Assembly: GCA_951406725.2 (NCBI GenBank)
Contig: OX597815.1
Span: forward strand, 162,812,001 to 162,876,000
DNA length: 64,000 nucleotides
DNA from: Octopus vulgaris
Lineage: Eukaryota
Direction of reading: 5' to 3'
Each line of letters opens with the position of its first letter. The first letter of the stretch is position 1. This document shows, piece by piece, positions 19,076 to 19,845 of the stretch. The notes beneath the pieces are model-generated. The model was not told the DNA's origin. It saw only the letters and a program-made list of their open reading frames with translations, and searched no databases. The translations under genes were made by a program, and so were the position numbers.

Positions 19076-19146
19076 GCCATAATAAGACTCTGAGTTTCGG
19101 ATGTCAGGGCAGAAACATGCTCCGGCATCTCATCAGTTATCGAGGC
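19076..19146 (-). ncRNA. Intact Type I hammerhead ribozyme (family A), predicted cut between 19086 and 19085
   Basis: gcc ucg auaa CUGAUGA gaug [ccggagcauguuucugcccuga] cauc c GAAA cucagag UC uuau uau ggc. Confidence 0.85.
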
Positions 19147-19233
19147 TATCACTTGCATGATGTTGTCCACAGAAACATGATGTAGCCTATACATGTGGTA
19201 TGTATGTATGTATGTATGCATGCATATATATAT

Positions 19234-19483
19234 ACACCAGCATCGGTTGTCAAGCAATGCTAGGGGGACAAACAGAGACACACAAACACACACACACACA
19301 TATATATATATACATATATACGATGGGCTCCTTTCAGTTTCCGTCTACCAAATTCACTCACAAGGCTTTGGTCGGCCCGAGGCTATAGTAAAAGATACTT
19401 GCGCAAGGTGCCACGCAAGGGGACTGAACCCGGAACCATGTGGTTGGTTAGCAAGCTACTTACCACACAGCCACTCCTGCGCC
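19234..19483 (-). mobile_element. tRNA-derived SINE family 1 (duplicated copy)
   Basis: Near-identical to 18424-18674. Confidence 0.85.
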
Positions 19484-19774
19484 TATATATATATGTATAT
19501 ATATATATATATATATATATATATATATGTATATGTATATGTATATTATATATATATATATATATATATATATGTATATATACATATATATATATATATA
19601 TATGTATATATATGTATATATACATATATATATATATATATATATATATATATATATATATATATATATATATTATTTATCATTTAATTGAATGTGACAC
19701 ATTCATTTCCAAGTGAATGTATGTGTATATATATATATATATATATACATAATATATGTGACAATTATTCGGTT

Positions 19775-19845
19775 GCCATAATAAGACTCTGAGTTTCGGA
19801 TGTCAGGGCAGAAACATGCTCCGGCATCTCATCAGTTATCGAGGC
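19775..19845 (-). ncRNA. Intact Type I hammerhead ribozyme (family A), predicted cut between 19785 and 19784
   Basis: Identical to 19076-19146. Confidence 0.85.

What the first reader, a model, noticed from the sequence alone, without database searches (positions are those of the whole stretch)
19076..19845. Two identical intact hammerheads 699 nt apart in tandem: a retrozyme-like unit that includes a SINE
Seen: two identical minus-strand HHRs (CUGAUGA...GAAACUCAGAGUC, with a bulged stem I gcc-ucg-auaa / uuau-uau-ggc) whose predicted cuts are 699 nt apart. They were created by a recent tandem duplication that also contains a same-strand tRNA-derived SINE head (19483, reading leftwards). Known: a palindromic stem III with a 1-nt loop favours dimeric HHR folding, and tandem HHRs release monomers that can circularise. 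Inferred: a minus-strand transcript could excise a ~699-nt RNA or circRNA carrying a SINE, making a nascent chimeric retrozyme.
Basis: partly seen in the sequence, partly recalled or inferred. Interest (0 to 1): 0.72.

Follow-up and report, generated by a model that had tools for sequence, protein, structure and literature searches.

The report
Chance duplication of a Penelope-type hammerhead
Two identical self-cleaving hammerhead RNA motifs lie 699 bases apart, most likely because a local DNA duplication copied one end-fragment of a very common repeat, probably from a Penelope-like retrotransposon, together with an old neighbouring SINE; nothing here shows the unit is transcribed, circularised or mobile, so it is probably ordinary repeat debris.

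Summary
Two identical minus-strand type I hammerheads have predicted cuts at 19785|19784 and 19086|19085, 699 nt apart, with a same-strand SINE head at 19483 between them. The 'chimeric retrozyme' reading is weak. The hammerhead is a ~95-nt piece of a very high-copy dispersed family, with two more copies within 3.3 kb as an inverted pair. Its stem III matches Hydra-clade Penelope hammerheads. The two units differ at 11 of 458 non-microsatellite bases. The two SINE copies share private mutations, and the second runs on past the duplicated part, so a pre-existing mosaic was duplicated as DNA rather than inserted from an RNA circle. The flank nearest the junction is at low-copy depth in 4 of 4 runs, so the unit is not amplified. 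The SINE promoter lies between the ribozymes and is followed by a private TTTT, so it cannot make the monomer. No RNA run held the stretch. The junction could not be tested in reads, so an assembly artefact remains possible (~15%). SINE-plus-hammerhead tandems are already known (Schistosoma Sm-alpha). A 699-nt circle remains possible (~7%).

The parts
19773..19848 (-). Hammerhead 1 (type I): core CUGAUGA 19835-19829, GAAA 19797-19794, stem III ACUC-A-GAGU, C17 at 19785, predicted cut 19785|19784
19074..19149 (-). Hammerhead 2, identical to hammerhead 1; predicted cut 19086|19085
19086..19784 (-). Predicted 699-nt cut-to-cut monomer; 31% GC; about 318 nt are microsatellite
19849..19899 (-). About 50-nt 5' flank of hammerhead 1, not shared with the sister hammerheads; differs from the unit-2 copy at 19880 and 19863 (both CpG-type changes)
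19150..19200 (-). Unit-2 copy of the 5' flank; diagnostic letters at 19181 and 19164; low-copy in reads at 19185-19191
19670..19725 (-). Segment X of unit 1 (diagnostic letter at 19698); holds an AATAAA at 19688
18883..19022 (-). Two identical copies of segment X in unit 2, 84 nt apart: a second, later local duplication
19484..19673 (.). (TA)n microsatellite of unit 1 (unit-2 counterpart 18677-18886)
19234..19483 (-). SINE copy 1, cut off at the duplication junction; A-box-like 19473-19463, B-box-like 19430-19420, private TTTT at 19393-19390
   Evidence: boxes read by eye from the recalled Pol III consensus
19233..19234 (-). Duplication junction: SINE ...GGTGT joined to the (TA)n/(CATA)n flank of hammerhead 2, with about 1 nt of microhomology
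18340..18674 (-). SINE copy 2; shares private mutations with copy 1 and continues about 85 nt beyond the duplicated part
19897..20052 (.). (CATA)n/(TA)n microsatellite in which the left end of the duplicated unit lies
15840..16092 (-). Sister copy of the hammerhead family (core at 15937; U16.1 changed to C); left arm of an inverted pair
16512..16771 (+). Sister copy (core at 16674, GUU site); right arm of the inverted pair, 82% identical to the left arm

Best explanation
The two hammerheads are identical copies of one fragment of a high-copy dispersed repeat, likely the 3' end (pseudo-LTR) of a Penelope-like element, and they likely came to lie 699 nt apart through a local DNA tandem duplication of a pre-existing mosaic of hammerhead fragment, microsatellite and decayed SINE. 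Inferred order of events: (1) a Penelope-type 3' end and an unrelated SINE inserted independently into TA-rich microsatellites; (2) the SINE decayed, gaining private mutations that include a TTTT; (3) a microhomology-type break between the SINE body (19234) and the upstream (TA)n duplicated about 750 nt, possibly by unequal exchange between homologues; (4) segment X duplicated again in unit 2. The locus is likely inert. It would release a 699-nt RNA only if an unrelated read-through transcript crossed both ribozymes and they folded as a dimer.
For: High-copy family. Four copies lie within 4 kb of window; the two sisters are 86-88% identical to hammerhead 1. Summed contig depth over the 3' half of the ribozyme is 1.7e5-4.6e5 in 4 of 4 runs, while most listed single contigs are 15-68 (the tool warns this is no copy number). 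Penelope-like features. The sisters form an inverted pair with cores 737 nt apart; opposite-strand pairs about 100-700 bp apart are described for truncated PLEs (PMC4209133). Stem III ACUC-N-GAGU is identical in 5 of 26 Hydra-clade rows of File S2 of PMC8557442. Hydra PLEs target (TA)n, and 3 of the 4 window copies end in a TA-rich microsatellite about 35-45 nt after the cut. DNA-level duplication. SINE copies 1 and 2 share 5 letters found in none of the 8 other aligned window copies (19449, 19418, 19403, 19391, 19330), and each has 4 changes of its own before the junction. SINE 2 runs on collinearly beyond the junction into sequence that is not in the monomer. Not amplified. Depth in the bin nearest the junction (19185-19199, about half covered) is 12-55 in 4 of 4 runs, against 1e7-8e7 for the SINE head. 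The SINE cannot drive the monomer. It lies between the ribozymes, has TTTT 90 nt after its start, and 13 runs of T4 or longer separate the next upstream SINE from hammerhead 1. No sign of selection: the chance of no change in 76 nt at the flank rate is 0.11.
Against: The junction stretch 19192-19324 was skipped as repeat by the read tool, so the duplication itself is not confirmed in reads. The longest flank-plus-ribozyme contigs in X1 (depth 37.6) and X3 (26.3) are at single-copy rather than double depth and run unbroken where two copies should merge. This is a weak hint that the duplication is not fixed or is an artefact. No RT or GIY-YIG frame is linked to this ribozyme family (148 of 174 filtered ORFs scanned; motif scan), so Penelope membership is inferred. 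The H between A9 and G10.1 of the PLE consensus is absent. Both copies carry C17 (GUC), whereas 90-96% of family depth has U17, so by the recalled NUH preference they could cleave better than most family members. A 115-nt stretch is unchanged (P 0.02, but that window was chosen after the fact).
Confidence: 0.75

Rival explanations
1. The tandem is an assembly artefact: two haplotypes of a single-copy locus, or a chimeric read, were joined head to tail.
For: The 2.4% divergence with CpG-type changes and microsatellite length differences could be allelic. Flank contigs in X1 and X3 sit at single-copy depth and show one version each. The junction was not tested.
Against: The junction joins mid-SINE to (TA)n with about 1 nt of microhomology, so an assembler has no overlap to join on. 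The window has no N gaps. Logan contigs collapse variants and cannot show absence.
Confidence: 0.15
2. A nascent retrozyme: the duplication is real, a minus-strand read-through transcript folds the two ribozymes as a dimer, and a 699-nt SINE-containing RNA is released and circularised by an RtcB-type ligase, as in Sm-alpha or other animal retrozymes.
For: All conserved core letters are present in 2 of 2 copies. C17 rather than the family's U17. The stem III palindrome gives a -8.8 kcal/mol duplex. Isolated stem I pairs have probability 0.79-1.0. The unit length lies within the 51-972 bp range of Li et al..
Against: There is no promoter known upstream and no host exon was found. An AATAAA lies 97 nt after cut 1. 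In the 851-nt transcript, stem I has probability 0.17-0.28 and the cross-ribozyme stem III 0.03. Only 1 of 9 Xenopus retrozyme dimers cleaved in vitro, and PLE hammerheads have low activity. The three listed RNA-type runs of organism A hold at most 0.02 of the words.
Confidence: 0.07
3. The unit is an already mobile chimeric retrozyme family, and this dimer was inserted from a circular RNA by Penelope machinery.
For: Two hammerheads in tandem with a Pol III-type head resemble Sm-alpha. Part of the 5' flank (19155-19184) reaches depth 400-1000 in 3 of 4 runs.
Against: SINE 2 continues beyond the monomer. There is no target-site duplication. The flank nearest the junction is low-copy. None of the window's other SINE copies overlaps a family hammerhead, and neither sister hammerhead overlaps a SINE.
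Confidence: 0.03

Closest known systems
Hammerheads in pseudo-LTRs of Penelope-like elements (Cervera & de la Pena 2014, PMC4209133), especially the Hydra clade (Craig et al. 2021, PMC8557442)
   Same: Type I topology, short stem I, long stem II, palindromic stem III; ACUC-N-GAGU-H is identical to 5 of 26 Hydra rows; solo copies and inverted pairs; (TA)n context.
   Different: No linked RT/GIY-YIG frame in the window. The extra nucleotide lies on the 3' side of stem II instead of between A9 and G10.1. The sequence differs from the octopus Hydra-1_Obim ribozyme (compared by eye only).
Animal non-LTR retrozymes (Cervera & de la Pena 2020, PMC7229834; Li et al. 2026, 10.64898/2026.07.22.740005)
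   Same: Tandem units each with a type I hammerhead; GC under 50%; Penelope-derived ribozyme. Li et al. propose local amplification of a PLE terminus as the way retrozymes are born.
   Different: Single locus; the unit is a mosaic that is 45% microsatellite; longer than the 170-400 nt expressed circles; made by DNA duplication; no TSD; no RNA seen.
Schistosoma Sm-alpha / Sj-alpha SINE-like hammerhead repeats (Ferbeyre 1998, seen only through PMC6765202 and PMC2770079)
   Same: A tRNA-derived Pol III head and a hammerhead in one tandem unit, with the promoter inside the cleaved monomer.
   Different: Sm-alpha is one family of more than 10,000 linked copies with shown cleavage. Here the SINE and the ribozyme are independent families that meet once, no unit lies upstream to transcribe the monomer, and the SINE has gained TTTT.

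Membership tests
non-LTR retrozyme | complete type I hammerhead in at least two consecutive tandem units | tested here: met
   2 of 2 units. My TRF run stops at period 500, so the exact filter of Li et al. (period up to 1000) was not reproduced.
non-LTR retrozyme | GC below 50%; monomer 150-450 bp (Cervera) or 51-972 bp (Li) | tested here: met
   31% GC, 699 nt: inside the wider range only
non-LTR retrozyme | monomer forms a multi-copy family | tested here: not met
   flank bin nearest the junction at depth 12-55 in 4 of 4 runs; no other copy in the window; no whole genome available
non-LTR retrozyme | array inserted from RNA: ends within the monomer, flanked by a TSD | tested here: not met
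   SINE 2 continues beyond the monomer; the left end lies in a microsatellite
non-LTR retrozyme | expressed as linear and circular RNA; self-cleaves | not testable with these tools
   no RNA run held more than a small share of the words; no raw reads offered
non-LTR retrozyme | highly self-paired circle | tested here: inconclusive
   74% paired, but driven by about 318 nt of microsatellite
Penelope-like element pLTR hammerhead | palindromic short stem III, G10.1-C11.1, short stem I, long stem II | tested here: met
   compared
Penelope-like element pLTR hammerhead | unpaired nucleotide between A9 and G10.1 | tested here: not met
   CUGAUGA-G directly, with an extra C on the 3' side; several Hydra rows also lack it
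Penelope-like element pLTR hammerhead | solo and inverted truncated copies; microsatellite targets | tested here: met
   inverted pair 15840-16092 / 16512-16771; 3 of 4 copies end in a TA-rich microsatellite
Penelope-like element pLTR hammerhead | linked RT plus GIY-YIG frame | tested here: inconclusive
   none in the window; no related loci in metagenome or viral contigs; the eukaryotic genome could not be searched
Sm-alpha-type SINE-hammerhead repeat | SINE head and ribozyme linked across the family | tested here: not met
   the window's other SINE copies and the 2 sister ribozymes do not overlap one another; summed depths differ about 100-fold
Sm-alpha-type SINE-hammerhead repeat | Pol III promoter upstream of two ribozymes without a terminator | tested here: not met
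   promoter between the ribozymes, TTTT at 19393; 13 T-runs between the upstream SINE and hammerhead 1

The most novel reading that the evidence does not exclude
A snapshot of retrozyme birth. One DNA duplication, perhaps still polymorphic, turned a solo Penelope-type ribozyme with a canonical GUC site into a dimer that releases a 699-nt circular RNA carrying a captured SINE head. This would independently re-create the Sm-alpha layout in a cephalopod.
Probability: 0.07. Interest if true: 0.6.

Novelty: new member of a known kind. Interest (0 to 1): 0.2.

Why it matters
As it most likely stands, it matters little: in a genome crowded with SINEs, microsatellites and Penelope-type ends, local duplications will now and then double a hammerhead, and such loci would inflate automatic retrozyme counts. 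If a circle were made, the locus would give a dated, single-locus test of the proposal that retrozymes arise by local amplification of Penelope termini, and of how an Sm-alpha-like SINE-ribozyme unit can form. The underlying high-copy ribozyme family (extra C beside G10.1-C11.1, mostly GUU sites) did not turn up in my searches and may be the more useful thing to characterise.

Tried and rejected
Whole-genome search: no genome is held. Rfam: no hammerhead match. Motif scans of metagenome contigs and viral contigs: 0 matches, as expected for an animal repeat. Junction test in reads: 19192-19324 was skipped as repeat, so the zero depth there is no finding. Earlier findings of the scan: nothing in 3 look-ups. 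Naiad_Ovul ('HHR_half_core') and Hydra-1_Obim as parent elements: of 10 exact 9-13-nt motifs searched in the supplement, 7 gave no hit and the other 3 hit sequence unlike ours. The Hydra-1_Obim ribozyme differs by eye; line breaks in the FASTA could hide matches. ARAGORN finds no tRNA in the SINE. A LNKRTE peptide at 22605 looked like a Penelope C-terminus but sits in a microsatellite frame and is taken as chance. The CUGACGA match at 14273 lies inside an RT frame and is taken as chance. The constrained double-hammerhead energy (14.6 kcal/mol above the minimum) was not used, because nearest-neighbour models penalise any unpaired catalytic core. Back-junction reads were rejected as a test, because the ligated ends equal the genomic sequence.

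Full report
Observation. The minus strand carries two identical type I hammerheads, with CUGAUGA at 19835 and 19136 and predicted cuts at 19785|19784 and 19086|19085, 699 nt apart. A core-plus-stem-III pattern matches 3 times in the window against 0.02 expected. Rfam does not match the motif. Stem I is 4 bp, an internal loop, then 3 bp. Stem III is ACUC-A-GAGU with a 1-nt loop, followed by C17. Stem II has an extra C next to G10.1-C11.1 in all 4 window copies. The host looks like an octopus, from the SINE and the microsatellite load; this label is recalled and comes from no call.

Anatomy. On the minus strand the order is: (TA)n/(CATA)n, 50-nt flank, hammerhead 1, (TA)n, segment X, (TA)95, SINE 1 cut off at 19234, then a short (TA)/(CATA), flank, hammerhead 2, (TA)n, X, X, (TA)105, and SINE 2 running to 18340. 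The units differ at 11 of 458 non-microsatellite positions (JC 0.024). With the calibration in PMC13282606 (JC 0.09 = 25 My) that would be roughly 3 My if the copies diverged in place, or less if two haplotypes were joined by unequal exchange (inference).

How the tandem arose. SINE 1 and SINE 2 share 5 letters found in none of the 8 other aligned window copies, and each has 4 changes of its own before the junction. They are therefore duplicates of one decayed insertion. At the junction SINE 1 stops mid-body and joins (TA)n with about 1 nt of microhomology, while SINE 2 continues along the family sequence for about 85 nt that are not part of the monomer. An array copied from a circular RNA could not end in sequence that the circle lacks. 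There is no target-site duplication. Segment X was duplicated again in unit 2, so the region is prone to duplication.

What the ribozyme is. Two more copies, 86-88% identical, lie at 15937(-) and 16674(+) as an inverted pair. They share upstream sequence with each other but not with the tandem copies, so the tandem copies hold only about 95 nt of the element. In 4 of 4 runs the summed contig depth on the 3' half is 1.7e5-4.6e5, while most listed single contigs are 15-68. The tool warns that this is no copy number; I take only the order of magnitude, thousands of copies. Most family depth (90-96%) has U17; the window copies have C17. Cervera and de la Pena describe palindromic stem III, solo copies and opposite-strand pairs for truncated PLEs. 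In File S2 of Craig et al., 5 of 26 Hydra-clade rows have the same ACUC-N-GAGU stem, and Hydra elements target (TA)n. The listed octopus element Hydra-1_Obim has the same layout but a different sequence. No RT-GIY-YIG frame is linked here: 148 of 174 complexity-filtered ORFs (of 427 of at least 55 aa) were scanned, and the strong hits were two RVT_1 fragments of non-LTR type, a zf-RVT and a mariner HTH. Penelope origin is therefore likely but inferred.

Could it make a circle? It would need a transcript that starts upstream of 19850. The SINE head lies between the ribozymes, so it can reach only hammerhead 2, and a mutation private to the two duplicates gives TTTT 90 nt downstream (T4 termination by Pol III is recalled). 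The next same-strand SINE (21504) is separated from hammerhead 1 by 13 T-runs, and an AATAAA lies 97 nt after cut 1. No host exon was found. In isolation, stems I and II form (0.78-1.0) but stem III does not. In the 851-nt transcript stem I falls to 0.17-0.28 and the cross-ribozyme stem III has probability 0.03; these models ignore tertiary contacts. Li et al. saw cleavage in 1 of 9 Xenopus dimers. Of 24 runs listed, none on record or guessed as RNA held more than 0.16 of the words, and those of organism A at most 0.02. Coverage of runs is thin, so this does not show absence. The identity of the two ribozymes is not significant (P 0.11).

Is the unit mobile? The bin nearest the junction has depth 12-55 in all 4 runs, against 1e7-8e7 for the SINE head, so the chimera is not amplified. 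The stretch 19155-19184 reaches 400-1000 in 3 of 4 runs; I did not resolve this, and it may be a small subfamily.

Is the tandem real? The read tool skipped 19192-19324, so the junction is untested. The longest flank-plus-ribozyme contigs in X1 and X3 have single-copy depth and show one version each. This hints that the duplication is not fixed, or is an artefact, but contigs collapse variants. The lack of overlap at the junction and the lack of gaps argue against an assembler's join. I put artefact at about 15%.

Comparison and novelty. The locus has the layout of an animal non-LTR retrozyme dimer and would likely pass the filter of Li et al.. It fails the family features that could be tested (multi-copy monomer, RNA-derived ends). 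A Pol III head plus hammerhead in tandem is known from Sm-alpha. Searches listed no paper on this ribozyme family or locus. Papers seen: 10.64898/2026.07.22.740005, parts 1-3 of 5 (its supplements are closed and may list related families); PMC7229834, parts 2-3 of 6 and passages; PMC8557442, passages and supplement parts 2, 52 and 53 plus searches; PMC4209133, passages, Discussion and one of two supplements; PMC13282606, part 1 of 3 and a supplement search; PMC6765202, PMC2770079 and PMC6962438, passages; Lunse 2017, not held; Ferbeyre 1998, only through reviews.

Verdict. The feature is real as assembled, and most likely an incidental duplication of Penelope-type and SINE debris (0.75). Rivals are artefact (0.15), a circle-producing nascent retrozyme (0.07) and an established mobile chimera (0.03). 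Interest 0.2.

Noticed in passing
window 15840-16092 and 16512-16771: Inverted pair (82% identical) of the same ribozyme family with cores facing outward, 737 nt apart; a Penelope-like truncated inverted insertion.
   Followed up: partly
window 19055-19149 (family level): Very high-copy hammerhead family with an extra C beside G10.1-C11.1 and mostly GUU sites, present in organisms A and B; not found in the papers searched.
   Followed up: partly
window 17144-17760: Inverted repeat of about 480 nt with two degenerate hammerhead-like cores of a second family at 17647(-) and 17676(+); the latter has a CCC-U-GGG stem III but a GUG site.
   Followed up: no
window 4590-4690 (-): CUGAUGA...GAAACUCAGGAGUA motif at 4656, a possible third hammerhead with a similar stem III and a 2-nt loop.
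   Followed up: no
window 20415-20683: 271-nt near-perfect palindrome (96%), MITE-like, 600 nt upstream of hammerhead 1.
   Followed up: no
window 14179-15171 (-): 331-aa reverse transcriptase frame (RVT_1, E 2.9e-12), R4/Dong-like by recalled motifs; other LINE fragments at 32217-32821 and 40537-41235, and a mariner HTH at 192-458.
   Followed up: partly
window 19155-19184: Part of the 5' flank has depth 400-1000 in 3 of 4 runs, so it may belong to a small repeat subfamily.
   Followed up: no
window 41586-42148: Complex 21-75-nt minisatellite built from a CTTTCCAGGAAG-type unit.
   Followed up: no
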